DNA of 61,606 nt, filler included, from Nemertoderma westbladi (lineage: Eukaryota > Animalia > Xenacoelomorpha), in assembly GCA_032718475.1 (NCBI GenBank). It is 3 parts of 3 records of this genome, joined end to end, with 100 filler letters (N's around TTAATTAATTAA, not from the genome) between each part and the next. Parts side by side here need not be neighbours in the genome. Positions count along the whole stretch, not along the records: positions 1 to 25,158 come from JAUCBJ010005555.1; 2 more parts are not named here. The stretch is one strand, 5' to 3'. A program made the translations under genes and the position numbers. The notes beneath the pieces were generated by a model, which was not told the origin of the DNA, ran no database searches, and saw nothing but the letters and a program-made list of their open reading frames with translations. Positions within the stretch are counted from its first letter, which is position 1. Each line of letters starts with the position of its first letter. Of this stretch, positions 6,528 through 53,708 are shown piece by piece.

Positions 6528-8909
6528 GTAGTGCTTTGGGGTGCGTGGGTGTATATGCCGTGCGTGTTGTGTCTACTGTATGTTTTGTGTAAATGCCTAC
6601 GCGTAGTTGTATGCGGTTACCATCCGCTATCGTATTCTGAGGGGTGTTGTATGTTTATTTCGGGGTTCAGGTGGTGTATCAATACATTCTCGCTGATCTC
6701 CTGTCGGGCCAATCCCTGCACCGGCGGAGGACCTTAATGGTGAACGGTGGTTGAGCGCCATCTGACCATGGACCATGTCTGGCTAGGTAGTGTGCCGCCA
6801 CGGAGCTCCTTCGTGATTTGTTATTGTTTCGTACCGCGTTCCTGTGTGCCATTGTGCGTATCCTAATGGGTTTATATGTTTCGTCTATGTATCTCTCTTT
6901 GCATAAATTGCACGTGGTTTGGTAAATTACGTTCTTTTTTGTGCAGTTGCGTGTACCGTTGGAACATGTGTAACATATTGTGTTAGGTAGTTTGGGGCAT
7001 TTGGGTTTGTTAAGCCGTGTTTGTATTAATATATCTTTTAATTTCCGTCCCGGTGTGAACACAACCCTGGTGGTTCTAGAAAATGGTGACCTTCTAATTA
7101 TCTCCTTTACCTTCCTGCCAACGTCCTCGTTGATGTGGGGGGAGTATGATTGGATGTTTCGGTTGATTGTCTGTTGTGGGTGGAGTACGTTGTAAAGGGA
7201 TGTGGTGTGCGGGTGAGTCAGATTGGGTGATGAGTCTATTGACCACTGCTGGAGGGTAGTTGTTTTGGTGGAGTAACTGTCTGGTGGTTTGTATGGCGTG
7301 TTGCTTGGCGACCGTTGTAGAGCTGTGTAAGATCGTTTTATGTATTAGGTTCCTAGCCGTATTAAGTATCACTGACTTCGGGTGGTGGCTATTGTAGTTC
7401 AGTATGATACCAGCGTTTGTGGGTTTTCTGTATGGTTCTATGTCTATGGTTCCTTGGTCATTGACTTTGGTGTATACGTCTAAGAATGCTAGACCGGTGT
7501 AAGATTTTTCCATCGTGTACTGTATGTTTATGTGTTGTGCGTTTAGAAAATCTAGAAATTGTCCCAACTCTTCCTCCCTATGTTTCCATACTGACCAACC
7601 ATCGTCCAAGAACCGATACCAACACTCTGGTGTTAGTCAGTACGTGTTAAGGTACTGAGTTTCTTTTATATGAATGTAAATGATGGCAAATGGTGCCGCC
7701 GCCCTATTCCCCATACCCATCCCATCTTTTTGTTTATAAAATTTATGGTCGAACTCGAAATAGCTAAAATCTATAACGAGTTGTAATAATCCATAAAATT
7801 CAGGTATGCTGAGTCCAAACATGTTGATACTATGTTTATGTTTATTGGCGAAGTCTCTGACGTCATCGATAGCTTGTCCTACGGGGATACTGGTATAAAG
7901 CGACACTATGTCTGTGGAAAACAGGATGTCTCCTGTTTCCAATGGGGGTAACTCTTTTAAACGTCGTATAAAATCCTCGGTATTTTTTAATTTTTCGGGG
8001 ACGTGTTCTGCGAGTTGGGTCAGGATTTGGCAAGCAAACCAGGCTGGTTTCTCGCCTGCTGACCCCGATGCAGACGAAATAGGGCGTATTGGCACGTCGG
8101 GTTTGTGAGTTTTCGGAGTTCCGTAAAGTTGAGGCGCCCTCAGGTCCTGTGTGAGGAGTCCGGTGGTAACTGTGTCTGGCAAAACGGGTCCGAGAATGTT
8201 GCTGATACCAGCTCTTATCTTGAGGTTGTTTTGTCTCGTTGGATCACGTGGGAGTTCTTCATAAGCGTTGGTGTTGGATGAACTATGATCGTGTACTCTA
8301 GATATGTAGTCCTTCCTGTCCATGACTGCAAACCCTCCCGTTTTGTCTGTTTTCTTTATGACTAATGTACTGTCTCTCCAGAGTTGGTTTAGTGCTGTGG
8401 CTTCCTTACTGGTTAAATTAGGCGTCGTTTTTTGTCCCGAATGTCGGTGTTTTCTATAAACAGCTAGGATCTCCTGTTTGAGTTCTGATAGTTCGTATTC
8501 TAAAGCCTGATCCGCCAGCGGTGGTTTGGTTCGGGGGATATCGGGGAACGGGAGTCTACCCAACTTCTTCCCTATGTAAACGTCGTTACTGGTAGGTTGA
8601 CTGCGGGCTGGGTCAACAGACTGCAAGGGGGCAGTCGGTTGCGGATCCAATATTGGGGCTGTTGGTGGAAGGGCGTGTGAGGAATTAGTCGGAGGGGTCG
8701 CCGGGTTGTGATCTGGGAGGGGTGTATGTGTGGGTCTATTGATGTTGGCGGTGTAAGGTCTCGCTGAGGCGCGTTGCTCTTCTCGAGTCTCGTGTTGTCT
8801 GTTTATTTCTGCCTTCCAGCGGACTCCGTAGGCGTGCCGGCACGCCGGCACGCAAATAAACCGGCACGCCTACGGAGTCCGCTGGAAGGCAGAAATAAAC
8901 AGACAACAC
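6528..8909 (-). mobile_element. Penelope-like retroelement (RT + GIY-YIG), 5'-truncated and disrupted
   Basis: ORFs 7637-8851 (KTDKTGG, LYGTPKTHK, DIVSLYTSIP, QKDGMGMG), 7094-7609 (preceded by WYRFLDD; thumb region LAFLDV, YRKPT) and 6679-7062 (CYTC..C..KNVIYQTTCNLCKERYIDET, GIY-YIG). Fold-back at the 5' end. Confidence 0.92.
8792..8909. repeat. 49-bp perfect inverted repeat (fold-back) at the 5' end of the Penelope-like element
   Basis: 8792-8840 is the exact reverse complement of 8861-8909. Confidence 0.92.
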
Positions 8910-11595: not shown

Positions 11596-11703
11596 TTAAA
11601 TCATTTGTAACAAAATTATTGGCTAAATTGAAATTGAATTCCATAAATTATGTATTTTAAAATGCCCTCAAACCAATAGGTTGACTTCAAACTATGGACC
11701 CAC

Positions 11704-12150
11704 ATGTGGTATTTGAAGGAGTTCGATTCCAATACAAACGGTTGGGCCATACGAGATCTATATGCCCAAATCTTAGATATGATGTCACCAAAAGTAATTA
11801 AGGACAGGATAGTTGATGAAATTAAGAAGCGGCCATTATTATTGGTAGTGGATGGTGCCAAATGCCATTTGGGATTAGAAACTCTAGAGTTGTGTCGGGA
11901 TAACAATATATCGGTTCTAAAGTTTCCATCATATGTAACTGACGTCTTGCAACCTCATGATATCTCCATGTTTCGTCCCTTTAAAGCTAAGTATGATACA
12001 TTGTTGCAAACAAGGAATGCTGCAACTGGTGCCGGTTTTGTACCAAAGGCTGAGTTTCTTGAGATTTTATCAACAGCTAGGGAAAGAGTCAAGGAGATAG
12101 TCGTCAAGGGGATTCAAACAACTGGAATCAATTCACCTGACAGTACCTAA
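11704..12150 (+). pseudogene. pogo/Tigger/Fot1-type DDE_1 transposase fragment (Tc1/mariner superfamily)
   Basis: Motifs NGW, LLLVVDGAKCH, and LKFPSYVTDVLQPHDISMFRPFKAKY. A probable right terminus cgtgactctccc|TA ends at 13362. Confidence 0.85.
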
Positions 12151-13499: not shown

Positions 13500-14640
13500 A
13501 TCCCACCACATTCTTGATTACATATCTATCACATGAACCCATCAATGACCCCAGTGCCGAGGACGTCACAGACGATGGAGAAATGTTAGCATATTTCCGC
13601 GTGACCACACACAGTACAATAGCTGAAACTTAGGATCATACAACGGGCCACATTGCAGACCCTCTCCTGGATTCCCTGCCTAAACACAGCAAAATATGAC
13701 CTCAACTACATCAGTTACACACACCGTGTTGTTGAGACAGGATTCTCCACTGCTTCCCGCTCGGATCCAGCTGTCGGAATGTATTAGGCGATCTGGGATG
13801 AACTCACCACGGACGGCGACCTTGTCTTATTCAGGAGTCCACACTGCCACCCACAAGGAGACACTCCACGCCTCCCACCAGGGTATCGAGCATACGCTGT
13901 GTCGAGCCCATCAATGCGTCTATTGGTCTTGACTAACTAATGACATCACTACCATGGTACGGGGTCTGTAACGAATGCATGCAACGTTAAAGTCTTGGAA
14001 AATAAACATTTGTTTGTGACCCACCAGCCACTTGACCATTCGATGATATGTTAGCTGACCTTTTTGCTCTAAACAGAAAGCACTTCATGGTAATGGATGA
14101 TCATTACTCTGTGTGACTGGAAGTCCAACCATTTACAACATACCCCACTGCAGATCATACAATACATGGCATCCGCAAAATATTTATCCAGTTCAGTGTA
14201 CCAAACTGAATACGTACCGAGGGAGGAACACTGTTTACTGCAGCTGTGTTAACCATGTTCCTTAAACACCTGGGAGAATACCCCCAGAGCAACGGCCACA
14301 CTGAGGCCACCATTAAAGCCCTGAAAGGACTTCTTCCCAAGACAGGGGCTTTCATTCAGTCTCCAGAATTCCAGAAAGGACTTCTGGAGTTGAGAAAGGC
14401 CCCATGTGCCAATGGAATGTCACCAGCTGAAATTATATTTGGACACCCCACTCGCACTTGAGTGCCAACACACCATTGTGTGTCCCCCCACATCATCCAA
14501 TCAAGGTACAATACCCTATCACCAAACGATGGGACCATGCAGGCCATGTAGTGGAAACCCTGAATTACCATGTCTGGATGCCATCTGGACGCACACTCAT
14601 CCAGAATCACCAACACGTATTAGTTGACTCCACCATGATG
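13500..14640 (+). pseudogene. Degenerate Gypsy/Ty3 pol (integrase) remnant
   Basis: LHASHQGIEHTLCRAHQCVYW (H2C2 zinc region), YPQSNGHTEATIKALKGLL, and LLELRKAPCANGMSPAEIIFG, spread over broken frames. Confidence 0.85.
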
Positions 14641-15402
14641 TCATCGACAGAAGCGCCCATAACAACAATGATATATATACTATACATACATAACATAATT
14701 ATAAGCTCGCCCAATATCATATATAGATAGATTTAATTACATGATCAGCCATTAGGAGGCATGACAATTATTCTGTACTGTTGCAATACTGTTGTATGAT
14801 GTAGGCCTAAAATCTAATATACATGACATTCTCATTCATCATTTTGGAAGCCCACATATTGTTACTTTTGTCTTGCTCCCATCCAAAGTTTGATGGAATT
14901 GTTGATTTAGGATGAGGCATAATGTGGTGTTTGTTCCACATGATAGAATGGTAAATTCATCTTAAGAGACATTGTTGATTGTTGAAGTGTGTCTTTAGTT
15001 GGAGGAAGTTGAATTTGTTTCTTTTTAAATAGCCATCACCTTAACTCTGCTAGTTTCAATTTTTGTTCCTTGGAGATATACTTGGCAAATATATTCTTCC
15101 AAAATTGCAAAAGTTTTATCTTCTATGGGTTGTCTGGTTACTCATCTCTATAAGTTTCCTGATAATGTACGTACCCCTTTGCTTGCTTCAATGCATTCCA
15201 AAACATTGTCTTGCCTTTCCCAGCAAAACATCCTGTAATATATGTGCTACTGAGGGCATGGAGAGTGGGAAGTGCCTTGGCCACATCTTTACCAATAGCT
15301 GAGTGAGTATGTCTGCCCTATGGATGTTAATCTTAGGTTTGTGTAAGTACCATTAATTAAATTTGTGTTGCAGCAAAACATGGATATCTTTGCATAGCTA
15401 AG

Positions 15403-15656
15403 ATGAATACATCGGTATCCAGTGAACTTATAGTTAGTACAGATGCCCCATGAAGTGTTGCATCAATGAATACATTGGTATCCAGTGAACTTATAGTTAG
15501 TACAGATGCCCCATGAAGTGTTGCATCAATGAATACATTGGTATCCAGTGAACTTATAGTTAGTACAGATGCCCCATGAAGTGTTGCATCAATGAATACA
15601 TTGGTATCCAGTGAACTTATAGTTAGTACAGATGCCCCATGAAGTGTTGCATCAAC
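15403..15656. repeat. 63-bp tandem repeat, 4 copies, inside the Academ-like remnant
   Basis: Unit atgaatacattggtatccagtgaacttatagttagtacagatgccccatgaagtgttgcatca. Confidence 0.92.
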
Positions 15657-16398
15657 ACCATGAAGGATTATCTATGTGTCGACTTCTTCTTGTTCGCTCT
15701 TCAAGTAACTCATATCGTAAAAATTGAATCAGAGTTTGAACTCCAAGCTACAACAATTTTTTTCAGAAGGTGGAATGGTTGTTATAATATTGTAAGATAT
15801 GAAATTCGTAAGTTCGTTTTATTTCTAGTATCCAATAATAAGGTTTTCATAGTTATATTCTTTATATTGGTGGTGTTGGTAATGTGACAGTAGACTGGAA
15901 TAAGTCAACCTCAACCTCGCCTTATAATGCACATGGCTGTCTTCAGCGAGTTGTATACATCATATCATTCAAAGATATGTACTGATGATATGATATATAC
16001 TGCATCCATTCACTCATATTTATTTAATATTTGACTGTTAAATATGTTTGCCAGTTTGGAGCATATTGTTTATTTACATTTTTTTTCTCCATAGATTACA
16101 GTTCAGTCATTCCATCTACAATAGTAGAGATATTATTGCTTCTGGAATTGTCTAGCAGATCAGTTGATCGTTTTGTGGTTGAGTAGCTGTCTTCTCAATA
16201 AGTTTCATAATAGTAATTTTGCAAGAGCATTTCAACATGTCACCATTTGCAGAAAGAAATGTGTCCTTTTCTTCTTTAAATACTACAACACCTCTGTTAC
16301 CTACTGTTACTTTAATATTCTTACCTGCTACTTTTCAAATTTGCAACTTTTCAAATTTGCAGTCTCAATTTTTTTTTATTGTTCCTCATATATTAATG

Positions 16399-16652
16399 GT
16401 GTCTTTAGTTGGAGGAAGTTGAATTTGTTTCTTTTTAAATAGCCATCACCTTAACTCTGCTAGTTTCAATTTTTGTTCCTTGGAGATAGATATACTTGGC
16501 AAATATATTCTTCCAAAATAGCAAAAATTTTATCTTCTACGGGTTGCCTGGTTACTCATTTCTATAAGTTTCCTGATAATGTACCCCTTTGCTTTCTTCA
16601 ATGCATTCCAAAACGTTGTCTTGCATTTCCCAGCAAAACATCCTGTAATATA
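16399..16652. repeat. About 255-bp direct repeat of 14989-15243
   Basis: gtgtctttagttggaggaagttgaatttg...catcctgtaatatatg is present twice with a few substitutions. Confidence 0.9.
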
Positions 16653-17010
16653 TGAGTAGTATAGAAAACCAATAAATGAGCGCACCAACTACCCCCAGGT
16701 TAAAATTTACTCCTTACCAGACTGACATATTTCTGAAAACTACCCCAAAATTTCAACTACTTTTTTACACCAATTTATTACAAATTATCATATTCACCTA
16801 ATTTTTCGCTTAACAAATTGATGGATTCCAATTTTCTGAAAATAGTTCACATGTTCTGACTCTATATGAGCGCAATATGATTAGAAGTTCATACAGAGGA
16901 GAGTTGCACCAATCCAAATGTTCTGTCCAATATATTTATTGTCTTGCTGTAAGTAAGATTACGTAAAAAAAATTATCTATTTAAGAAATTAAAACTAATA
17001 GAAAATTTGT

Positions 17011-19613
17011 ATGGCTACTACTATATGTGAAAACATCAATAAACCAACTAGTATGGATGCTACACAGTTTGTAACATTTGAACAGATGGGATTCAGAGTT
17101 CCAAAGTCAGCTTGCATGCATCTACTGTTAGAGAATGCCTATGAGTCTAATCTTCTGACTGATATATCAAAAGTAGATTACCTAGCAGGCAATGGAGGTA
17201 ATATGCTGCTTCAAGATGTGCCTGAATTGGAAATGTTTGTTGACGATCTTTATGTGTATGGGTATCTTCGAGAAGATCAAGTTGTGAAAACCAAAAGTTC
17301 TGTCATGTTAACAACTGGAAGGTTTGGGTCTGCCTCGTATATTGTGGAGAAGTTGAGGAGGGAGGCAACACAAACAATCGGGAAGAACTGTGATGACTTT
17401 ATACACACAAAAATATTAGCCTCTGTACCATTACAATCTCATGGAGTGATTATGCAAACAGTGCATAAAATTGAAAGAGAGATGAAGGAGAAAAATATCA
17501 AAAACTGGAAAAACCTGGAACAAAAAGAACCTATTGCTGTCTTTGTTGCAAAGTTGGATGTATCTGTAATCAACCTAGATGATCTGCAGGAGCACTTGGC
17601 TGAATTTGGCAGAATACTGCAGACATGTGGATGGGGAATATACTCTGTGGACTACACAAAGGACTTTGCTGGAACACTTGCTGGAACACTTGATAGGAAG
17701 GCAATAGTCAAACATCTAGTGGAAACAAAAGGTTGGAGGTTGGAAGGGACATTTCAAGCAGCATTGGAGGGTGATCAGCCCACAATTTTGGAAAACACTT
17801 CGTCTGTGGGAAATCATGTGTTGACATACATCACATCTTGGGGCGGAAATACAATGAGAGTGAAGCTGTGCAACAAAATTGTTTCCAGTTTGAAGCAGGA
17901 GAAGTATTGGAGAATTTTTGAGGGCATTTGGCAGACTATGCTGATTGCAGGAACCCTGTTCTTCGGAAATCCTTAGAACATCCATTGATCCAGCAATATG
18001 GATGTACAAGAGTTGAGATATCCTTGTACTCTATGAATTACATATCTAGAGATCTTGGCGTGGAAGTGATGAGAAGTGCATTAGAAAACATACAGCCATA
18101 TGAGGGATTATTTGTACAGCAAAATGGGAGGAATCACTGGCGAGCTCTAGCAAAAGAGGTGACAAGGTGTTGTGTCATCGCCTCTAAGACCACAGGAACA
18201 ATATATGTAGCTTGGTATGCTCACACAAAAACTGGGAAAGTTTCTGGAGTGAAAGTGCAGTGTAAGTTTGATAAGTTTCTGGAGTGAAAGTGCAGTGTAA
18301 GTTTGATAAGTTTCTGGAGTGAAAGTGCAGTGTAAGTTTGATATACAAGAAAATAGACTATAGTGGAGTTGTTCAGAAGTTGGATTTCGAGGTTGTCCTA
18401 TATTTTGCTTCCAAATTAGAAATGAAAATGAAATTGAAAAAGGGCACAGAAATAGCACCTCTGAAATGCTATTTCAAGGACCCCACTGCAAAAACAATAC
18501 TTTGCTCACCGAAACTACCAACACAGTAGTGTAGGTCAGTTCAAGCAAGAATTCCATTGGAAGAAATGCTGCCACCAACAGATTTCATAGAATGGACATG
18601 GAGACAAGAGCCATGCAAATCATTGGGTACAGATGCAATGGAAAATACAAGAGGTGCCTGAATACTTGCAAACACATCAGGTATCTTGGTTGTCAACCTG
18701 GAAGAGAGCACAGAGAAACATTGATATTCTGGTTGATTTAGAATGTGAAAAATGGAGACAAGATGCACTGCAAAGAAATGCTAGAAACCAAGAAGAAGTA
18801 GCCTTGATACACAAAAGGTTGCTGGAGTTCAAGGAAAGAAAACAACTTGAAACTGAACACAAAGAATATGTTTTGAATCTGCTGAAGCATACTCCCATAC
18901 ACAAAATTTCTGAGCTGGATGGCGTGAAACCATTGCAAGCAGCAGTGCTTGGATTCCGACATGCAGTTGGACCCTACAAAAGCTATGAGGTATTACTTTC
19001 CATTAATGGTGAAAATTTCAAGGTATATTCCAACCGAGGATTGGAGTGTGTTTTGGATGAATTGAGAGATGCTTTTCACAGAGCACAAGAACCAAAAACA
19101 CGAAAAATTTGGTTTTTGGTTGCTTCAGAGTTAAAAGTTGAAATTAAAGCAGCCAAACAGTTCACAAATGATAAGCAACAGATAATCACTTGGTATCCAG
19201 TGACATTATTGTCAAGTCCAATGGAAGGCGAACAGCGAAAAATTCAAGAAAGATTGAAGAAAGTTGAAAGTGAATATGAGAAGGCCAAGTCCATGTGCTT
19301 GGTTGAATATCCTGCAAAAGAGAAGAGCAGTGTGAGAAAAGTGCTTGAATTGGAAGAAGGTGAATATCAATGTATAGCATACTGGAACCAGAGCTATAGA
19401 GGAAAAGTGCGTCATATATTATATTTGCAGAACAAGGATGGTAAATCTGCAAGACCAGTGTATGGTTATTTCTTGCAGAGAGAAGTTGAGCTGATGCAGT
19501 GTGATTTGTCCACAGTACTGTCTCCACTGCTAGTGAAAGTAGGAAGAACAAAAACAACACCACAAAAGAACAAAGATAGAATTGTCACTATAGCACACAA
19601 TGAGACCAACTAA
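17011..19613 (+). pseudogene. Frameshifted gene of about 840 codons with Rep_trans-like rolling-circle initiator motifs and a beta-rich C-terminus
   Basis: Consecutive ORFs 17011-17976, 17928-18287, 18338-18529 and 18633-19613 join through small indels and a 35-bp triplication. Motifs IYSVDYTKD, RVKL(C)NKIV and CTRVEISLY. No introns are evident. Confidence 0.5.
18239..18343. repeat. 35-bp tandem triplication disrupting the Rep-like gene
   Basis: agtttctggagtgaaagtgcagtgtaagtttgata starts at 18239, 18274 and 18309. Confidence 0.92.
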
Positions 19614-19627
19614 CACTTTGGAGCATC

Positions 19628-19914
19628 ACAAATCAAAAACAATCAAACTGAAATCAAGATAATCAAACAGAAATAAAACAAACAATCAACAGACTGCAAT
19701 CAAAAACAATCACAGAAGCACTGTCAGGAATACATTCAGACTTTCAGTCTGTGTCCCTCTCACCCATGCCTTACATCAAACTGCAATCAAAAACAATCAA
19801 ACTGCAATCAAAACCGATCAAACTGAAATCAAAATATTCAAACAGCAATCAACAAACTGCAATCAAAATCAATCACAGGCACACTTTCAGGCACACTTTC
19901 AAGCACACTTTCAA
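19628..19914. repeat. Short direct-repeat cluster (aatcaaac/aatcaaaa units, plus gcacactttca x3)
   Basis: Seen directly downstream of the stop codon at 19613. Confidence 0.75.
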
Positions 19915-20062
19915 GCATATGAGATAAGAGCTACCACAAAACCACTAGACCCAGGAAAAGGCTCAGACATAAGCAGAGCAGTATGGGGTCAAACAATTCA
20001 GTAAATTACAGTTCCAAAATACTTATCACGAACATAACTGTGGTACCTATTTAAAATATTAA

Positions 20063-21345
20063 TTTTTGGCTACCCTCTATTTTTGGGGGCAGCATTTTTG
20101 GCTACCCCCTATTTTCGGGGGAACATTTTTGGCTACCCCCTATTTTTGGGGGCACCATTTTTGGCTACCCCCCATTTTTGGGGGCAGCATTTTTGTCTAC
20201 CCCCTATTTTTGGGGGCACCATTTTTGACTAGCCCCTATTTTTGGGGGCAGCATTTTTGGCTACCCCCTATTTTTGGGGGACCATTTTTGGCTACCCCCT
20301 ATTTTCGGGGGCACATTTTTGGCTACCCCCTATTTTTGGGGGACCATTTTTGGCTACCCCCTATTTTTGGGGGCACCATTTTTGGCTACCCCCTATTTTC
20401 GGGGGCACCATTTTTGGCTACCCCCTATTTTCGGGGGACCATTTTTGGCTACCCCCTATTTTTGGGGGCAGCATTTTTGGCTATCCCCTATTTTTGGGGC
20501 AGCATTTTTGATGGCCCCCTATTTTGGGGGGCAGCATTTTTGGCTACCCCCTATTTTTGGGGGCAGCATTTTTGGCTACCCCCTATTTTTGGGTCAGCAT
20601 TTTTGGCTACCCCCTATTTTTGGGGGCAGCATTTTTGGCTACCCCCTATTTTTGGGGGCAGCATTTTTGGCTACCCCCTATTATTGGGGGCAGCATTTTT
20701 GGCTACCCCCTATTTTCGGGGGCACCATTTTTGGCTACCCCCTATTTTCGGGGGCACCATTTTTGGCTACCCCCTATTTTTGGGGGCACCATTTTTGGCT
20801 ACCCCCTATTTTCGGGGGCACCATTTTTGGCTACCCCCTATTTTCAGGGGACCATTTTTGGCTACCCCCTATTTTCGGGGGACCATTTTTGGCTACCCCC
20901 TATTTTTGGGAGCAGCATTTTTGGCTACCCCCTATTTTCGGGGGCGCCATTTTTGGCTACCCCCTATTTTCGGGGGACCATTTTTGGCTACCCCTATTTT
21001 TGCGGGCACCATTTTTGGCTACCCCCTATTTTTGGGGGCAGCATTTTTGGCTACCCCTATTTTTGGGGGCACCATTTTTGGCTACCCTCTATTTTCGGGG
21101 GACCATTTTTGGCTACCCCCTATTTTTGGGGGCACCATTTTTGGCTACCCCTATTTTTGGGGGCACCATTTTTGGCTACCCCCTATTTTCGGGGGCACCA
21201 TTTTTGACGGCCCCCTATTTTGAGGGGCAGCATTTTTGGCTACCCCCTATTTTTGGGGGCAGCATTTTTGGCTACCCCCTATTTTCGGGGGCGCCATTTT
21301 TAGCTACCCCCTATTTTCGGGGGCAGCATTTTTGGCTACCCCTAT
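20063..21345. repeat. About 32-bp satellite, roughly 40 copies, each with a CCCCC-TATTTTT-GGGGG hairpin
   Basis: Consensus tttttggctaccccctatttttgggggcagca, with cacca and gacca variants. Confidence 0.97.
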
Positions 21346-21492
21346 AACGTACGCTCTCAAACCATACTCAGAACTATACCAATCATTCACAGCTTTTGAG
21401 ATCAATCGGAACAAAGATTCCCATTCCTTCTCATAAAACCCTATCTGAATACCCTGATGGTCTTTCAAAAATATAATATATAAGTTAAAATA

Positions 21493-21685
21493 TATGAAGA
21501 CAAATGAAATAAATGCTACTGTTTGTATTTAAGAAAAGTGATATTCTATGTAAACAAATTCAAATAAGAATAATAAAAAATAGATTTGATAAAGGCTATG
21601 CAATATAGCCGAAATATCATCTGTAGAATAAAAACATCACTTTTCTTAAATACAAACAGTAGCATTTATTTCATTTGTCTTCATA
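21493..21685 (+). repeat. Pseudo-LTR-like 5' end of a Penelope-like element: 50-bp fold-back enclosing a hammerhead-like motif
   Basis: 21493-21542 is the reverse complement of 21636-21685. Confidence 0.8.
21581..21623 (+). ncRNA. Degenerate minimal hammerhead-like motif
   Basis: tagat-TTGATAA-a-ggctat(gcaat)atagcc-GAAA-t-ATC-atctg has helix I and helix II, but the core deviates from CUGAUGA. Confidence 0.45.
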
Positions 21686-21782
21686 ATTACTAAATTTACA
21701 AATGCTGGGCAGTGCATATTATTCATATGTTATAAATATTATCTTCATTTATACACTGTTCCCTTTGAAGCTGTTTTGTATT

Positions 21783-24536
21783 ATGGACCAAAGTTTATGT
21801 TCCATTCAGAAAGAATTATTACATTGTAGTGAGAAGTACGCACGATATAAACACCATGTTGAGTACCTAAGACATCACCAACGATGTGGAAGTATACCAC
21901 TTGGTTTAAAAGTAAAATTTCATTGCGGCGCAACTGATAACATTTTATGTACAAAAGTCAATTCATCTTTAAAGAAATGTTCAAAAAAATTAATTAGTAT
22001 TTTTTTGAACCACAATAAGAGAAACATGGATGAGCTAAAGGCAAAACAAAACCAGATATTAAACAAGGCTACGAACAATGAAGACCGTATGGAACTAGAA
22101 AATAAATTAATTGAGCGTATTACAAACCTTTCCAAGTATTATTCCAAAAGAGAAATAAATAAATACAAACGCAATGGTCTATGTCTGCATTCAGAAGCAA
22201 AACTTCAACAACAAGATATTAGTGAGCAACTAAACGGGAAAAATATTAGTGTGCCTGTACATGTACAAGATAACAATATAAATATTAACGATGACAACAT
22301 ACTTGAACTATCGGGAATATTGGACTCGGGCAATAACATAATAAATCAATATGAAGAGAGTGACAGCATAATAGAATTATCCGGAATATCAGACTCAGGC
22401 GAAAACAAAATAAATCAACATGAAGACAGCAACAGCATAATTGAATTGTCATACAACATAGAAAATCAAAATAAAGACAGCATGATTATATTATCTGAAA
22501 GTGTATTGTTTAAAGGTGATGCAGATAGTAATTGTAAAAGCACTATTGCGGAAATACCTATTTACGAAACGGATATTGACAGTTTAAAAGAGGAGGGATG
22601 GTTAACTGACAATATTTTGGAAAGTTTGCTTAGATATTGGTGCGATTGCAACACGAATACTTTGAACAGAACATTCAACACACATTTTTTTGAAATATTA
22701 AACTCTGAACGTGGGGGATACAATGCCATAAAACAATGGACTTCAAAAATAAACATATTCAATTACGATGGTTTGTACTTCCTGGTCCTTATGAATGGTA
22801 ACCATTGGGTTTTAGTAATATTTAAACCGAAATCACGAAAAATATTTTACTTAGATTCTATGGGTGGACAAAATATAAAGATTATAAACAGTTTAAAATA
22901 TTGGATTAAAAAAGAGGCATTGAAAAACAACATTTTGGACATCGAAATCATAATAGAACCACCAATAAAAATAGTACAATTTAATAGTTATCAATGTGGC
23001 GTGTACGTATGTAAGTTCGGTAAAATGTGTATAGACAGTAGTGATGGTATTTACAACCTTTCATATGTAAATGAGAACAATATTAATGTGTTTAGAAATA
23101 AAATGAGATCATTAGTAAATGATATTATGTCAAAAAATAATAAAGAAAGTCTAGGAAATTTGGAGAAATCCTTAAATGTTCTAGAACAGGAAAATGAAAG
23201 CTTTGGAAATGTTAATGTAACAACAAATAGTAACGTAAAAGTATTTAATTTAACAGAACAAAAAATTGATCCCGGACTTATTAAATTATGTAGTTTGGGG
23301 CCTTCATTTGTACCACAGCCAATGAGTGTCAATTGGGATGATATACAAAGAAATTGGCAAAATTTTAAAAGAAAAGTGCTATGGAAAGCGTTTTTTTATA
23401 AAGACAATATGGAAGTAATTAATATAGAATCAGCAGACAAAGTTGACAATTCATTATTTCCACCACACATAGCATCAACACGAAATCCACCAAAATGCAA
23501 TATTCCAGCAATCGAAGTATTTCTTGACAGTATTGAGAAAGATATTTTTAAAGATACTAAGTTAAAGAAAGTAAGAGACAACATAGATCCTCAAGAAAGA
23601 GGAGCGTTAAATAAATTTAGAAAAACAAACATAAATGATAAGGAATATATTATGAGATTACAAGACAAAGGAAATTCTTTTGTATTCATTGATAAGGAAA
23701 CAGACAACAAAAAACTAAAAGAGCAAATGGATTGTGGATCATTTAAGAAAGTTGAAAAAGACCCGAGTTTTACAATTTTAAACCAAATTACAAACTGGAC
23801 TGAAAAATGGAAAGACCTTGGACTAAGCAATAAATGGGTAAATTATATTTTATTAAACTCTGAACCTACACCGGGCACAAATTATCCAAGAATAAAACTA
23901 CACAAAGAACAAGCACCTGCGCGTGTAATAACATCAGGTTGTGGTAGCGCAACAGAAAATCTTTCTCAATTTGTAGAAACATACTGCAAAAAGATAGCTA
24001 ACACATTACCACATCGGGTAAAAGATACCTCACACATGCTGGAAATAATAGACGAATTAAATTTACATGAAATTGCAGATAATGATATATTGATTAGTTT
24101 TGATATTATTAATATGTTTCCTTCTATTGACAACAAAAACGGGATCAATATAGTTTCTAATAAATTAAAAGAAAATATACACTTGTTTGATGTACCTTCT
24201 GACTGCATTATTGAAGCATTGGAAATTTGCCTAAAAAACAACGTATCACAGTATCAAAATGAGTTTTGGATACAAACAGACGGCACTGCAATGGGACCCA
24301 AAAATTCTTGTTCTTACGCTGACATAGTGGCAGGAGATATTGATATAAAAGTAATTAACAAGAAAAAAAGATACCCTGAATTAAGATGTTGGTTTAGATA
24401 CAGAGACGATATATTCTCCATATGGCGTGGTTCAAAAAGGCGTCTATTCGAATTCTTTAAGCTATTAAATACATTGGATCCAAAACTTAAGTTTACACTG
24501 GATATACAGTCCCGCTCTCAAAAAGCATTCCTTTGA
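21783..24536 (+). CDS. Penelope-like retroelement polyprotein: N-terminal domain, SIM-like repeats, Ulp1/SENP (C48) protease and reverse transcriptase; 3' end cut off by an insertion
   Basis: Uninterrupted ORF (open from 21702). Protease motifs GWLTDNIL, FNTHFF, NHWVLV, YLDSMG and QFNSYQCGVYVC. RT motifs VFNLT, LGPSFVP, RLQDKG, SFDIINMFPSID, QTDGTAMGPKNSCSYAD and WFRYRDD. Confidence 0.92.
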   Translation: MDQSLCSIQKELLHCSEKYARYKHHVEYLRHHQRCGSIPLGLKVKFHCGATDNILCTKVNSSLKKCSKKLISIFLNHNKRNMDELKAKQNQILNKATNNEDRMELENKLIERITNLSKYYSKREINKYKRNGLCLHSEAKLQQQDISEQLNGKNISVPVHVQDNNININDDNILELSGILDSGNNIINQYEESDSIIELSGISDSGENKINQHEDSNSIIELSYNIENQNKDSMIILSESVLFKGDADSNCKSTIAEIPIYETDIDSLKEEGWLTDNILESLLRYWCDCNTNTLNRTFNTHFFEILNSERGGYNAIKQWTSKINIFNYDGLYFLVLMNGNHWVLVIFKPKSRKIFYLDSMGGQNIKIINSLKYWIKKEALKNNILDIEIIIEPPIKIVQFNSYQCGVYVCKFGKMCIDSSDGIYNLSYVNENNINVFRNKMRSLVNDIMSKNNKESLGNLEKSLNVLEQENESFGNVNVTTNSNVKVFNLTEQKIDPGLIKLCSLGPSFVPQPMSVNWDDIQRNWQNFKRKVLWKAFFYKDNMEVINIESADKVDNSLFPPHIASTRNPPKCNIPAIEVFLDSIEKDIFKDTKLKKVRDNIDPQERGALNKFRKTNINDKEYIMRLQDKGNSFVFIDKETDNKKLKEQMDCGSFKKVEKDPSFTILNQITNWTEKWKDLGLSNKWVNYILLNSEPTPGTNYPRIKLHKEQAPARVITSGCGSATENLSQFVETYCKKIANTLPHRVKDTSHMLEIIDELNLHEIADNDILISFDIINMFPSIDNKNGINIVSNKLKENIHLFDVPSDCIIEALEICLKNNVSQYQNEFWIQTDGTAMGPKNSCSYADIVAGDIDIKVINKKKRYPELRCWFRYRDDIFSIWRGSKRRLFEFFKLLNTLDPKLKFTLDIQSRSQKAFL

Positions 24537-25158
24537 TCAAACATTGATCAAACTTTGATCAAACATTGATCAAACTTTGATCAAACATTGATCAAAGTTT
24601 GATCAAATATTGAAATGAACCAGGCTTATAAATCCTGCCATTGAGTTCTACCAAAGGCGCTGCACTTCAAAGTCTAGATTCCCACTGAGCCGTGTGTCAA
24701 TCAAGCAGCCCTCACTCTCTCTCTCTCTCGCTCTCCCTGTGTGTGTAATGCTCCATGTGCTCTGTAGGATGTCTGCAGAGCACACAGGACACCACGTCCA
24801 TATCATACCATCGGTTTGTACGCTATAGCCGTTATTTAAACCGGACCGCCTAGGTTATAATAATTTACAGCGATTATCAGAAAATAACAGCCGCAATTGA
24901 ATCTCCACTTGGCGGTGTGGTGGTAATGAAAGCAAGGGCGGGTATGGGCTGTGTGGGGTTTAATTCTGAGTTAAGCAATGTGTTGGGTGGATGGCTACAA
25001 ATACATTATAAAGGGGGGGGGGGGGGGCAACTAGCGTACCGAGCGAGGGGAAGGCCATTTGAAAGCATACTGATAAACCCTTTCCAGTTGAAATGAGAAA
25101 AAAAAATAATATATATATTAAAGATCCACATTTCAAATTTTCTGAAACAAAAGCATTT
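24507..25158. mobile_element. Insertion starting TA|CAGT (possible Tc1/mariner-type end) with a TTGATCAA palindromic array
   Basis: RT homology stops at ...KFTLDI. An 11-bp repeat ttgatcaaac(a/t) occurs about 7 times at 24533-24610. The other end is lost in the gap. Confidence 0.4.
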
Positions 25159-52213: not shown

Positions 52214-52310
52214 CTGACCCATTAAGTAAAGTAAGACTTATAAAGATAACATATACTATAAATGATCGCAGTGTATTAAGCGTGGACCAAATACTAGTGT
52301 TGCGACAATA

Positions 52311-53708
52311 ATGGTCACTAACGGTACTATTCAGACTGATCCGGACCATCCCGAAAACTATAACAAAAAACCGCACGGATGTGTACCAACAGTTGATTGC
52401 AAAGTGGCAAACGTACAAGCTAAGCGACATGTGTTTGAAATCACAACAGAAGTTAGAAACAGCCGGAAGCGTCCAATAGAAGCGTTCGATAGAGCCCTGC
52501 AATCTGTCGATATTAAGTACCAGGAGTATGGAGGACAGGTAGCTGTCGAAATTAAGGGGAAACTATTTGCTGGGTACGGCTTCGACTCAAAACGCCGGTC
52601 ATTAAGCAGAAACCGACACCGTGAGATTCCTAAAGATGTCACTATTTATAAGATACCAGATCAGTTAAAGGTGGCCAAGCCCAGTTCTGATCGGTTCCTC
52701 TTAATCAATGAAATTATTGAGGGAGAAGAAATACTTCTCTATTCAGCAGACGATGATCTACGCTTGTTAAATAATTGCGAAGTTGTCATCTGTGATGGGA
52801 ACTTTAAGTTTACGCCTCCCGAATTTCACAACCCGGGTGAAATGTATACAGTGCATGGTGTGGTGGATGGAGAGCCCCATGTTTTAGGATACGCTCTGAT
52901 GAAGGGACAATCGGAAGGAAGCTACATCAGGATGTTTACTGCTTTAAGAGATAACATTTATCATCTTTGCGGTAAAGGTGGCAGAATTAATACAGCTAAG
53001 TGGCTTTTCGATTTCGAACTTGCAGCAATGAATGCTTGCAATATAGTTTTCCCAATGGTGACCGTGTTAGGTTGCGCTTTTCATTTCGCTAAGGCCATAA
53101 ACGAGAAGCGAGACAGCCTTGGCCTTAAAGGTGTTTGTGTTGAAGATACAGCAGAGGGTAAAACTGTAAAGTATTGGTTCAAAGAGATTCGTTCTTTACC
53201 ATTCCTTCCTGATGGGTATCGCTATCAGGTTGCCTATACTCTGATCAATGAACAGCTACCAAACCTGTCCGCTTTAACAGCCAATAAAGTTTTCCAATTT
53301 CGACAATATTGTATTGGATTTTGGCTTCGGCAGGATGTATTCATCAGATGGGGACAGTTCGGAAATACCGGCCCTAGGACCAGCAACTATGCTGAAGGTT
53401 TCCACAATGGGCTTCATTCCCGGCTCACCAGCCTCCATCCGTGCCTTGGAGAGATCCTGGAATTTTTCCAGTTAAATCAACATACTTCCCAGCAGCACAT
53501 GAAGGCCTTGCTAGAACCGAATACTATTGCTGTTCCCAAACCAAAGTCTCCACATATCCAGATACGGGACCAATGCTTGGTTGAGGAGATGGGGCGATTC
53601 GCAAACTACATGGCTGCATGGCCTAATAACATTTATTATAATGACTGTAAGATGTACATGCGTTGTTTGATGGTCATTGGACTGGTACCCCAGGCTTTTG
53701 AGGAGTAA
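52311..53708 (+). CDS. Mutator-like (MULE) DDE transposase, apparently intact core
   Basis: ICDGNFKFTP, MYTVHG, GYALM, LFDFELAAMNA, VLGCAFHFAKA (CxxH) and RTSNYAEGFHN. Confidence 0.92.
   Translation: MVTNGTIQTDPDHPENYNKKPHGCVPTVDCKVANVQAKRHVFEITTEVRNSRKRPIEAFDRALQSVDIKYQEYGGQVAVEIKGKLFAGYGFDSKRRSLSRNRHREIPKDVTIYKIPDQLKVAKPSSDRFLLINEIIEGEEILLYSADDDLRLLNNCEVVICDGNFKFTPPEFHNPGEMYTVHGVVDGEPHVLGYALMKGQSEGSYIRMFTALRDNIYHLCGKGGRINTAKWLFDFELAAMNACNIVFPMVTVLGCAFHFAKAINEKRDSLGLKGVCVEDTAEGKTVKYWFKEIRSLPFLPDGYRYQVAYTLINEQLPNLSALTANKVFQFRQYCIGFWLRQDVFIRWGQFGNTGPRTSNYAEGFHNGLHSRLTSLHPCLGEILEFFQLNQHTSQQHMKALLEPNTIAVPKPKSPHIQIRDQCLVEEMGRFANYMAAWPNNIYYNDCKMYMRCLMVIGLVPQAFEE

What the first reader, a model, noticed from the sequence alone, without database searches (positions are those of the whole stretch)
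17011..19613. Candidate eukaryotic element with a Rep_trans-like (non-HUH) rolling-circle initiator
Seen: four adjacent ORFs can be joined into one intronless gene of about 840 codons. Three motifs in order, IYSVDYTKD, RVKLCNKIV and CTRVEISLY, parallel the pT181/pC221 Rep_trans motifs TRLDLAFD, RIYNK (catalytic Tyr) and WRVEIEL. The Cys codon TGC at 17869 is one transition from Tyr TAC, which fits decay. After a coiled-coil, the C-terminal ORF has two beta-rich units starting KISEL.. and KVLELEEGEY.., which may be OB-like ssDNA-binding folds. Known: Helitrons and Replitrons use HUH enzymes, whereas Rep_trans is known from plasmids, phages and ICEs. Inference: an undescribed rolling-circle mobile element or endogenous ssDNA replicon in an animal genome. 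The motif match is short and made by eye.
Basis: partly seen in the sequence, partly recalled or inferred. Interest (0 to 1): 0.82.

Follow-up and report, generated by a model that had tools for sequence, protein, structure and literature searches.

The report
Animal transposon with Rep_trans-like nicking enzyme
This 2.9-kb stretch is a broken copy of a repeated, sharply bounded DNA element in an animal-type genome; its single protein is predicted to carry the DNA-nicking domain that starts rolling-circle copying in bacterial plasmids and phages (Rep_trans type), so it is likely a copy-and-paste jumping gene with an enzyme I could not find reported for eukaryotic transposons.

Summary
17011-19613 is a decayed, intronless copy (six pieces) of an ~850-aa unnamed family with 1,223 representatives at E<=0.001 and no Pfam, PHROG or NCBIfam match. 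The Tyr of KxYNK is present in 133 of 139 homologues; the window copy has Cys. Models of intact homologues adopt the TBP-like fold (TBP Z 8.3; RepSTK1 Z 6.7, 188 of 267 residues). Language-model look-alikes are Rep_trans/Phage_CRI clusters (0.92-0.94). Sequence-profile support is weak, and the two C-terminal OB folds are weakly supported (Z<=3.5). The element is repeated in its host, with a sharp 5' end (16655), a ragged 3' end at the stop codon, and no terminal inverted repeats, target duplication, HUH motif or helicase. Best reading: a helicase-less, non-HUH rolling-circle transposon (0.68). Several relatives sit in Polinton-type polymerase genes, so a virus-parasite lifestyle is the main rival. 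It is not a strict PF02486 member. The scan noted a matching description before on another genome (e1-7353153). Activity is untested.

The parts
16655..19606 (+). Whole element (about 2.95 kb): sharp 5' end at 16655, ragged 3' end at about 19593-19606
   Evidence: Loose ends before 16655 in 3 contigs of run X1 and 7 of run X3, with mixed flanks. A paralogue of the left flank stops matching at 16654. Depth falls from 780-1404 to 37-248 after 19591-19610, with loose ends at 19593, 19594, 19601 and 19606.
16655..17010 (+). 5' non-coding end; holds the window's only two GAGCGCA words and short CTACC repeats, which resemble a motif near the 5' ends of relatives (suggestive only)
   Evidence: The pattern was chosen after seeing the data, and an HMM from relatives does not hit here. 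No stable hairpin (z +0.78).
17011..19613 (+). Single intronless gene of about 840 codons, broken into six pieces
   Evidence: full-length homologues of 644-979 aa
17200..18140 (+). Predicted TBP-like (Rep_trans-like) nicking domain; limits approximate, carried over from models of intact homologues
17236..17247 (+). FVDD motif; first Asp is the likely counterpart of RepD/RepC D46
   Evidence: Asp in 107 of 109 homologues; placed on D46 by hhalign
17647..17664 (+). VDYTxD motif; first Asp is the likely counterpart of D142
   Evidence: Asp in 131 of 134; two columns off D142 in hhalign
17863..17877 (+). KxYNK motif; predicted catalytic Tyr, which is Cys in this copy
   Evidence: Tyr in 133 of 139; on a beta-strand in both models; aligned to RepC Y191
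18006..18023 (+). TRxExS motif; Glu is the likely counterpart of E214
   Evidence: Glu in 135 of 140; aligned to E214
18238..18343 (+). Perfect 35-bp triplication that breaks the frame
18690..18900 (+). Long predicted helix (coiled coil) linking the two halves; limits approximate
   Evidence: Helix 530-603 in the P0006 model
18903..19595 (+). Two beta-rich units, likely OB folds for single-stranded DNA binding (weak support)
   Evidence: Model ranges 612-725 and 768-859 match Teb1, TEBP, POT1, RPA and an editosome protein at Z 2.2-3.5; Atlas score under 0.8

Best explanation
The stretch is a decayed copy of a repeated single-gene element that is likely an autonomous rolling-circle (copy-and-paste) DNA transposon, driven by a predicted Rep_trans-like, TBP-fold tyrosine nickase instead of the HUH enzyme of Helitrons and Replitrons. 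Shown: the gene family, its conserved Asp-Asp-Tyr-Glu set, repetition in the host, a sharp 5' end and a ragged 3' end at the stop codon, and no terminal inverted repeats or target duplication in this copy. Predicted from models: the TBP-like catalytic domain and, weakly, two OB folds. Inferred by analogy with Rep_trans initiators: the three acidic residues hold a divalent metal, and the Tyr nicks the coding strand at the fixed 5' end and stays bound to the 5' phosphate. Strand-displacement synthesis by an outside polymerase or helicase then peels the strand off (none is encoded). The OB folds hold the single strand, and the 5' end is joined to a target. Loose termination near the stop codon gives the ragged 3' ends and sometimes carries downstream DNA along. 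This copy is likely dead (no Tyr, five further breaks).
For: Family: 27 homologues at E<=1e-31 among 2,045 candidates; 1,223 of 1.84 billion representatives at E<=0.001. Residues: D62 107/109, D204 131/134, Y275 133/139, E324 135/140 among 218 collected proteins (these include close cluster members). All four are intact in 60 of 65 domain rows at median 38% pairwise identity. The four bacterial counterparts D46, D142, Y191 and E214 are invariant in 7 of 7 fetched plasmid Reps and are named as catalytic in PMC13107129. Fold: domain model pLDDT 92.5, pTM 0.91, all four residues on beta-strands. Among 48,161 chains the top three are TBP (Z 8.3-7.7); RepSTK1 4cij has Z 6.7, rmsd 6.4, 188 of 267 aligned, the longest alignment in the list; RepDE 4cwc has Z 5.8. 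The TBP-like fold is the Rep_trans fold. The viral library returns inovirus proteins (E 2.7e-4), G2P (E 2.2e-3) and A0A345MNV4 (E 5.5e-3), the same inovirus initiator that flagged Rep-Arvir. Atlas: 0.92-0.94 to Phage_CRI and Rep_trans clusters, with 10 of the 10 best family-bearing hits in one family or clan. Mobility: sharp 5' and ragged 3' ends in 3 runs from 2 studies. Nine related loci (95-99% identical) show 5 different 5' flanks joined at the same base and 5 kinds of 3' junction at the stop codon. Cluster members share long contigs, e.g. 4 of 6 on contigs of the same 1,212,111-base length. Contigs of other copies differ from the window at several of its lesions. A fixed left end with a fuzzy right end is also the Replitron pattern.
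Against: No sequence-level proof: 0 of 27 homologues hit Rep_trans or any consistent family in Pfam, PHROGs or NCBIfam, and no solved chain matches by sequence. Profile-profile comparison with 7 Rep_trans proteins is weak (P 0.03 and 0.17; P 0.0074, probability 5%, one Asp two columns off). Structural scores are middling: TBP itself outranks the Rep_trans chains, unrelated half-domain folds score Z 7.0, Foldseek TM-scores are only 0.27-0.33, and Foldseek on the PDB gave nothing at E<=0.001 with the full model. I could not superpose the active sites in 3D. Motif I lacks the Arg of RxD, and the Glu after YNK is at +8, not +5. OB support is Z<=3.5. Flank pairing in short-read contigs may be chimeric, and read depth from contigs is not a copy number. 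Two relatives (L005, L026) carry an inverted copy of the 5' end, which a simple one-way model does not predict.
Confidence: 0.68

Rival explanations
1. The protein is a Rep_trans-like rolling-circle initiator, but the element is mainly a satellite or parasite of Polinton/Maverick-like viruses. It would use their strand-displacing protein-primed polymerase and insert into their genomes, and chromosomal copies like this one would be by-products.
For: Of 36 loci searched, 6 (L006, L007, L010, L012, L013, L024) abut a gene whose full-length relatives carry Endonuclease_7 and, in 1 of 5 scanned, DNA_pol_B_2. L015 joins the same gene by a 29-nt match, giving three separate junctions within one polymerase gene. 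No helicase is encoded. Eleven loci carry a conserved 95-aa convergent second ORF. That this polymerase architecture marks Polintons is my own knowledge.
Against: The window copy has no Polinton gene nearby; its neighbours are ordinary retro- and DNA transposons. No relative was found in IMG/VR (0 of 77 and 0 of 24 candidate stretches). Six of the seven polymerase-adjacent loci belong to one closely related group, so they are not independent, and metagenome contigs may over-represent high-copy DNA.
Confidence: 0.2
2. The domain has a TBP-like fold but is not a rolling-circle nickase (for example a DNA-binding or transcription-factor-like domain, or another nuclease), and the element is moved by some other mechanism.
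For: TBP outranks the Rep_trans chains in all four VIA searches. Large-virus early transcription factor subunits appear in the viral library at E 9e-4 to 0.05. The sequence-profile match to Rep_trans is not significant.
Against: A near-invariant Asp-Asp-Tyr-Glu set in Rep_trans order on beta-strands is what an enzyme needs, and TBP has no such site (own knowledge). RepSTK1 gives a longer alignment and higher identity than TBP (188 residues at 12% against 155 at 8%). The Atlas points to Rep_trans/Phage_CRI clusters. No other transposase lies within the ends.
Confidence: 0.09
3. It is a decayed host gene or prokaryotic contamination, not a eukaryotic mobile element.
For: One relative lies in a bacterial MAG (1 of 124 candidate stretches). 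The gene has no introns.
Against: That hit is an isolated 1.5-kb contig in a symbiont bin (host carry-over is my inference). The window is full of eukaryote-type elements: BEL/Pao DUF1759, MULE, DDE_1 and RVT_1. The element has many divergent copies with different flanks in the host's own runs.
Confidence: 0.03

Closest known systems
Rep_trans initiators and MOB_T relaxases (PF02486: pT181 RepC, pC221 RepD, RepSTK1 4cij, RepDE 4cwc/4cwe) and Phage_CRI / inovirus G2P (PF05144)
   Same: Predicted TBP-like fold; Asp-Asp-Glu plus Tyr in the same order; Tyr on a beta-strand within YNK; R-x-E motif.
   Different: No Pfam hit; no Arg in motif I; longer spacing between the catalytic residues (142/71/49 against 96/49/23); about 850 aa with an extra beta domain, a coiled coil and two likely OB folds; lies in a eukaryotic, multi-copy, integrated element rather than a plasmid, phage or ICE.
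Rep-Arvir (archaeal TBP-fold rolling-circle endonucleases, PMC13107129)
   Same: A distant TBP-fold branch recognisable only by structure, with a divergent Tyr motif and long spacing before the second Asp; flagged by the same inovirus protein in the viral structure library.
   Different: Rep-Arvir has a KHYYM motif and a MarR-like wHTH and occurs in archaeal viruses and plasmids; this family has KxYNK and beta-rich C-terminal units and occurs in eukaryotic contigs.
Replitrons (PMC10288648)
   Same: Helicase-less, single-gene eukaryotic copy-and-paste elements with a fixed left end and a fuzzy right end.
   Different: Replitrons use an HUH Rep with GYxxK and have short terminal direct repeats; this family has no conserved HUH motif, a different fold, and no significant terminal direct repeat.
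Helitrons (from own knowledge)
   Same: Rolling-circle elements without terminal inverted repeats; fixed 5' start and variable 3' end; some encode RPA-like OB-fold proteins; in one group of relatives the base before the 5' end is A in 4 of 5 junction types.
   Different: Helitrons encode an HUH-Y2 Rep fused to a Pif1 helicase and end in a hairpin plus CTRR; none of these is found here.
IS91/ISCR one-ended rolling-circle elements (from own knowledge)
   Same: One fixed end and a variable other end that can carry flanking DNA.
   Different: Bacterial, HUH-Y2 transposase; the fixed end lies downstream of the gene, whereas here it lies upstream.

Membership tests
Rep_trans (PF02486) / Phage_CRI | TBP-like catalytic fold | tested here: met
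   Domain model matches TBP (Z 8.3), RepSTK1 (Z 6.7, rmsd 6.4, 188 aligned) and RepDE (Z 5.8-6.0) over its whole length. The Z values are middling.
Rep_trans (PF02486) / Phage_CRI | Asp-Asp-Glu metal triad in order N', I, IV | tested here: met
   D 107/109, D 131/134, E 135/140, in order and on strands; register with D46 and E214 in hhalign, D142 two columns off.
Rep_trans (PF02486) / Phage_CRI | Catalytic Tyr on a beta-strand | tested here: met
   Tyr in 133/139, on strand 226-233 of the domain model; criterion from PMC5714925. The window copy has Cys.
Rep_trans (PF02486) / Phage_CRI | Spatial overlap of Tyr and acidic residues with the solved active site | not testable with these tools
   Fold searches return ranges and scores, not residue pairs or coordinates.
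Rep_trans (PF02486) / Phage_CRI | Exact motifs I (RxD) and III (YxKxxE) | tested here: not met
   The family has [S/C/Q][I/V]D without Arg, and YNK with the conserved Glu at +8 (131/142) instead of +5.
Rep_trans (PF02486) / Phage_CRI | Motif II (T/SxY/ExG) and motif IV (W/LxRxE) | tested here: inconclusive
   T-R-x-E is conserved (T 130/142, R 138/142, E 135/140) but lacks the Trp; no clear motif II.
Rep_trans (PF02486) / Phage_CRI | Pfam model hit | tested here: not met
   0 of 27 homologues, 0 of 39 further proteins and 0 of 4 window ORFs; a control RepC scores 41.7 bits.
Rep_trans (PF02486) / Phage_CRI | Metal-dependent nicking with a 5'-phosphotyrosine link | not testable with these tools
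   Needs biochemistry.
Rep_trans (PF02486) / Phage_CRI | Hairpin origin with nick site | tested here: inconclusive
   The 5' end of L007 folds better than shuffles (z -2.4), but the window's two ends, L007's 3' end and L023's 5' end do not.
Rep-Arvir | KHYYM-type motif and DUF7845 domain | tested here: not met
   The motif is KxYNK; no Pfam family hit. I did not check that the Pfam copy holds PF25227.
Rep-Arvir | MarR-like wHTH after the catalytic domain | tested here: inconclusive
   The region after residue 361 is mostly beta in the model and was not folded or searched alone.
Helitron | HUH Rep fused to a Pif1 helicase | tested here: not met
   Only one His is conserved at 90% or more; H-hydrophobic-H occurs at scattered places in 54 of 218 proteins and a Walker A pattern at scattered places in 6 of 218; the fold is TBP-like.
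Helitron | 3' hairpin and CTRR end | tested here: not met
   No hairpin at 19500-19625 (z +1.7); the 3' boundary is ragged.
Replitron | HUH Rep with GYxxK | tested here: not met
   criterion from PMC10288648.
Replitron | Fixed left end and fuzzy right end | tested here: met
Replitron | Short terminal direct repeats | tested here: inconclusive
   5-6 shared bases at the window's ends, but 797 of 3,000 random pairs share 5 or more.
Polinton/Maverick or ssDNA virus | Polymerase, integrase or capsid genes within the element | tested here: not met
   The 2.95-kb unit holds one gene only; polymerase genes are flanks in some relatives.

The most novel reading that the evidence does not exclude
This is the eukaryotic branch of the TBP-fold rolling-circle endonucleases, so far described from bacteria (Rep_trans) and archaea (Rep-Arvir). 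It forms a new order of eukaryotic DNA transposons whose single protein fuses a Rep_trans-like nickase to its own RPA-like ssDNA-binding folds, moves by one fixed end without a helicase, and in some hosts targets or parasitises Polinton-like virus genomes for their strand-displacing polymerase.
Probability: 0.55. Interest if true: 0.9.

Novelty: categorically new. Interest (0 to 1): 0.8.

Why it matters
A 2026 paper treats TBP-fold rolling-circle nickases as bacterial and, newly, archaeal (PMC13107129). The eukaryotic rolling-circle transposons it and the Replitron paper mention use HUH enzymes. A large eukaryotic family with the non-homologous TBP-fold enzyme would place this superfamily in all three domains of life, which bears directly on that paper's proposal that it predates the last universal ancestor. 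It would also add a transposase chemistry missing from eukaryotic repeat classification and explain many unannotated repeats. It is directly testable: one domain of about 320 aa, four named residues and a defined 5' end as candidate substrate. A sequence-specific protein-DNA linking enzyme with built-in ssDNA binding could also be of use as a tool.

Tried and rejected
No whole genome is held for this window, so copies were studied through run contigs and other species' loci. Profile libraries gave nothing: Pfam, PHROGs, NCBIfam, PDB sequences, and Rfam on 14000-22000. Foldseek on the PDB with the full model gave antibody noise and nothing at E<=0.001. IMG/VR: no relatives of the family, of L023's flank ORF (96), of the polymerase P0270 (98) or of pT181 RepC (48); these pattern scans find close relatives only. 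No homologue of 1,776-5,000 aa among 7,192 candidates (107; weak evidence against helicase fusions). No RNA holder was listed, which says nothing about expression. Global-mode hhalign gave trivial alignments. Terminal direct repeat: rejected as chance. Terminal hairpins in the window: not found. Terminal inverted repeats and a target duplication in the window: not found, and the right flank does not continue the paralogous empty site at 15245. A 5'-motif HMM from 11 relatives did not hit the window's 5' end or the 32-bp satellite; the motif count (9 in 9.5 kb upstream against 2 in 57 kb) was post hoc. CpG depletion of the element (o/e 0.22) is shared by the left flank (0.26), so it is regional. 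My by-eye reading of L023's flank ORFs as Polinton polymerase was not supported. The tree (112) is the quick version, with 20 of 87 rows left out as under 250 residues; I draw no donor or order from it. Literature: 10 searches returned no paper describing a eukaryotic Rep_trans-like element. I saw search listings and abstract starts for most papers, term passages of PMC5714925, PMC10288648 and PMC13595969, and passages plus part 1 of the Discussion of PMC13107129. I read no supplements. Repbase/Dfam and subscription journals were not searchable.
Full report
1. Observation. A profile of intact homologues shows that six pieces between 17011 and 19613 tile one protein of about 850 residues in order, and that no other part of the window matches. 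The breaks are a frameshift near 17890, a 35-bp triplication at 18238-18343, a stop at 18361, a frameshift near 18440, a stop at 18527 and a frameshift near 18635; there is also an in-frame 12-bp duplication. The window is eukaryote-type DNA, rich in BEL/Pao, MULE, DDE_1 and non-LTR RT remains. That this set points to an animal is my own knowledge.

2. The protein family. The first ORF finds 27 proteins of 644-979 aa at 35-55% identity among 2,045 candidates. A profile of these finds 1,223 of 1.84 billion representatives at E<=0.001 and 335 at E<=1e-30; only the best 150 were listed. None carries an informative name, and 0 of 27 hit a consistent Pfam, PHROG or NCBIfam family or a solved chain. 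All four are intact in 60 of 65 domain rows at a median pairwise identity of 38%. In seven fetched plasmid Rep_trans proteins D46, D142, Y191 and E214 are invariant. These are the metal ligands and nucleophile named for RepDE in PMC13107129 (passages). PMC5714925 gives the Asp-Asp-Glu triad and a Tyr on a beta-strand as the marks that separate Rep_trans from HUH enzymes (passages).

3. Fold. An intact homologue (P0006) folds at pLDDT 83 into an N-terminal alpha/beta domain, a small beta domain, a 70-residue helix and two beta-rich units. The N-terminal domain of another intact homologue (L003) folds at pLDDT 92.5, pTM 0.91, with all four residues on strands. Against 48,161 solved chains the top three are TBP (Z 8.3, 7.9, 7.7). 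RepSTK1 has Z 6.7 (rmsd 6.4, 188 of 267 aligned) and RepDE Z 5.8-6.0 (similar with the full model). The tool warns that Z under 8 can be a common arrangement, and unrelated half-domain folds reach Z 7.0. The viral library gives an unnamed protein (E 2.5e-4), an inovirus protein (2.7e-4), inovirus G2P (2.2e-3) and A0A345MNV4 (5.5e-3), at TM-scores of only 0.27-0.33, mixed with large-virus transcription-factor subunits. Independently, language-model features match Phage_CRI and Rep_trans clusters at 0.92-0.94, with 10 of the 10 best family-bearing hits agreeing; the top cluster has no family and the family shares are 10-67%. Profile-profile comparison is weak but in register: D46, Y191 and E214 fall on the family's Asp, Tyr and Glu, and D142 lies two columns off (P 0.0074, probability 5%; P 0.03 and 0.17). 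The C-terminal units match Teb1, HIN, TEBP, POT1, RPA and an editosome protein at Z 2.2-3.5; that these are OB folds is my own knowledge. The Atlas gave no lead for this part. No HUH motif or helicase is conserved.

4. It is a mobile element. Contigs from three runs (two samples, two studies) of an organism carrying this sequence pile up on 16670-19606 at several to twenty times the depth of the flanks, at 80-99% likeness. Depth is no copy number, but the contigs also show mixed flanks before 16655 (3 contigs in X1, 7 in X3). A paralogue of the left flank stops matching at exactly 16654. At the other side, depth collapses around the stop codon, with different flanks after 19593, 19594, 19601 and 19606 (9 rows not shown). 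Other copies differ from the window at several of its lesions, so these belong to this copy. No terminal inverted repeat, target duplication, significant direct repeat or hairpin was found at the window's ends, and the right flank does not continue the empty-site paralogue. Among 35 metagenome loci (of 190 candidate stretches), nine near-identical copies show 5 different 5' flanks joined at one base and 5 kinds of 3' junction at the stop codon. Three of these 5' junctions could be compared with an uninterrupted site; all three follow CA, and two read CA^TAA. These are short-read contigs, so the pairing of left and right flanks is unreliable. The family is absent from the IMG/VR scans and appears once, on a 1.5-kb contig of a symbiont MAG, among prokaryote genomes (1 of 124 candidates).

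5. Link to Polinton-like DNA. Six of 36 loci abut a gene whose full-length relatives carry Endonuclease_7 and, in 1 of 5 scanned, DNA_pol_B_2, and a seventh joins the same gene. Six of the seven are one related group. Eleven loci carry a conserved convergent 95-aa ORF, and two carry an inverted second 5' end. None of this applies to the window copy.

6. Mechanism. Shown: family, conserved residues, repetition, a fixed 5' end and a ragged 3' end. Predicted: a TBP-like domain and, weakly, OB folds. Inferred from Rep_trans chemistry: metal-dependent nicking at the 5' end, a 5'-phosphotyrosine link, strand displacement by an outside polymerase or helicase, ssDNA held by the OB folds, joining of the 5' end to a target, and loose termination near the stop codon. 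The same end pattern is reported for the helicase-less Replitrons (PMC10288648, passages). I give this 0.68, a Polinton-dependent satellite with the same enzyme 0.20, a non-nicking TBP-like domain 0.09, and a host gene or contamination 0.03.

7. Comparison and novelty. It works like a Rep_trans initiator but fails strict membership: no Pfam hit, and motifs I and III deviate. It is neither a Helitron nor a Replitron (no HUH, no helicase), nor Rep-Arvir (different motif). PMC13107129 (passages and Discussion part 1) and PMC13595969 (passages) describe TBP-fold initiators from bacteria and archaea only. Ten literature searches returned no description of a eukaryotic one, but Repbase, Dfam, supplements and subscription papers were not seen. 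After I had recorded my reading, the scan's notes showed a matching description on another eukaryotic genome (e1-7353153), a one-ended element at CAT sites in a protist (e1-9914381) and bacterial insertion sequences with Rep_trans-like proteins. These are unchecked leads, not support, and a sequence look-up found no look-alike, so I could not confirm that e1-7353153 is the same family.

8. Verdict. The feature is real and is a dead copy of an apparently undescribed eukaryotic mobile element whose enzyme is likely a TBP-fold rolling-circle nickase. Interest 0.8; novelty categorically new among eukaryotic transposons, pending active-site superposition, biochemistry and a check of repeat databases.

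Noticed in passing
L006, L007, L010, L012, L013 (5' flank), L015:1-29, L024:457-810: Relatives are joined to a Polinton-type protein-primed polymerase gene at three different points in one host group, and once in another.
   Followed up: partly
L003:4222-4509, L005:3264-3542, L016, L017, L018, L019, L021, L023, L029, L030, L004: A conserved 92-95-aa ORF without a Pfam match faces the main gene in 11 loci; it is absent from the window and from L006-L015.
   Followed up: partly
L005:3728-4393, L017:~1900-2330: A third ORF with an HTH-like N-terminus (FGIGTTxLYxIW, by eye) and a coiled coil follows in two relatives.
   Followed up: no
L005:4421-4558, L026:2307-2446; window joint 16714/16715-19369/19370 in runs X1-X3: An inverted second copy of the 5' end lies downstream in two relatives, and a contig joining the 5' end to an internal point on the opposite strand is seen in all three runs; these may be derivatives bounded by two 5' ends.
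   Followed up: partly
window:20062-21342: 32-bp satellite (40 copies, 91% matches) 450 bases downstream; its TTTTTGGCTACCCC resembles the 5' end of relative L005, but an HMM test did not support a link.
   Followed up: partly
window:21687-24536: 949-aa ORF with a Ulp1-type protease domain (Pfam E 1e-16) followed by an RT-like region (by eye), probably a Penelope-like retroelement; flanked by a 64-nt inverted repeat (21482-21696) and an 11-bp array (24531-24613).
   Followed up: no
runs X1 and X3, joint 18498-19418: An internally deleted form (skips 919 bases, 12 other letters between) exists in two studies and is likely a non-autonomous derivative.
   Followed up: no
P0167: A fragment of the catalytic domain is fused to Kelch repeats in one predicted protein, probably an insertion into a host gene or a gene-model artefact.
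   Followed up: no
window:14989-15244 and 16399-16654: A 256-bp duplication (94%) ends exactly at the element's 5' boundary.
   Followed up: yes
window:38434-42842, 52266-53708, 11680-12150, 56528-59461, 6679-8869, 34974-36209/46105-47340: BEL/Pao gag-protease, MULE, DDE_1 and APE-RT retroposon remains, a second RT-like element (by eye), and a 1.2-kb 99.7% duplicated repeat.
   Followed up: no
L044: The only hit among 185,579 prokaryote genomes is a 1.5-kb contig in a symbiont MAG, likely host carry-over.
   Followed up: partly
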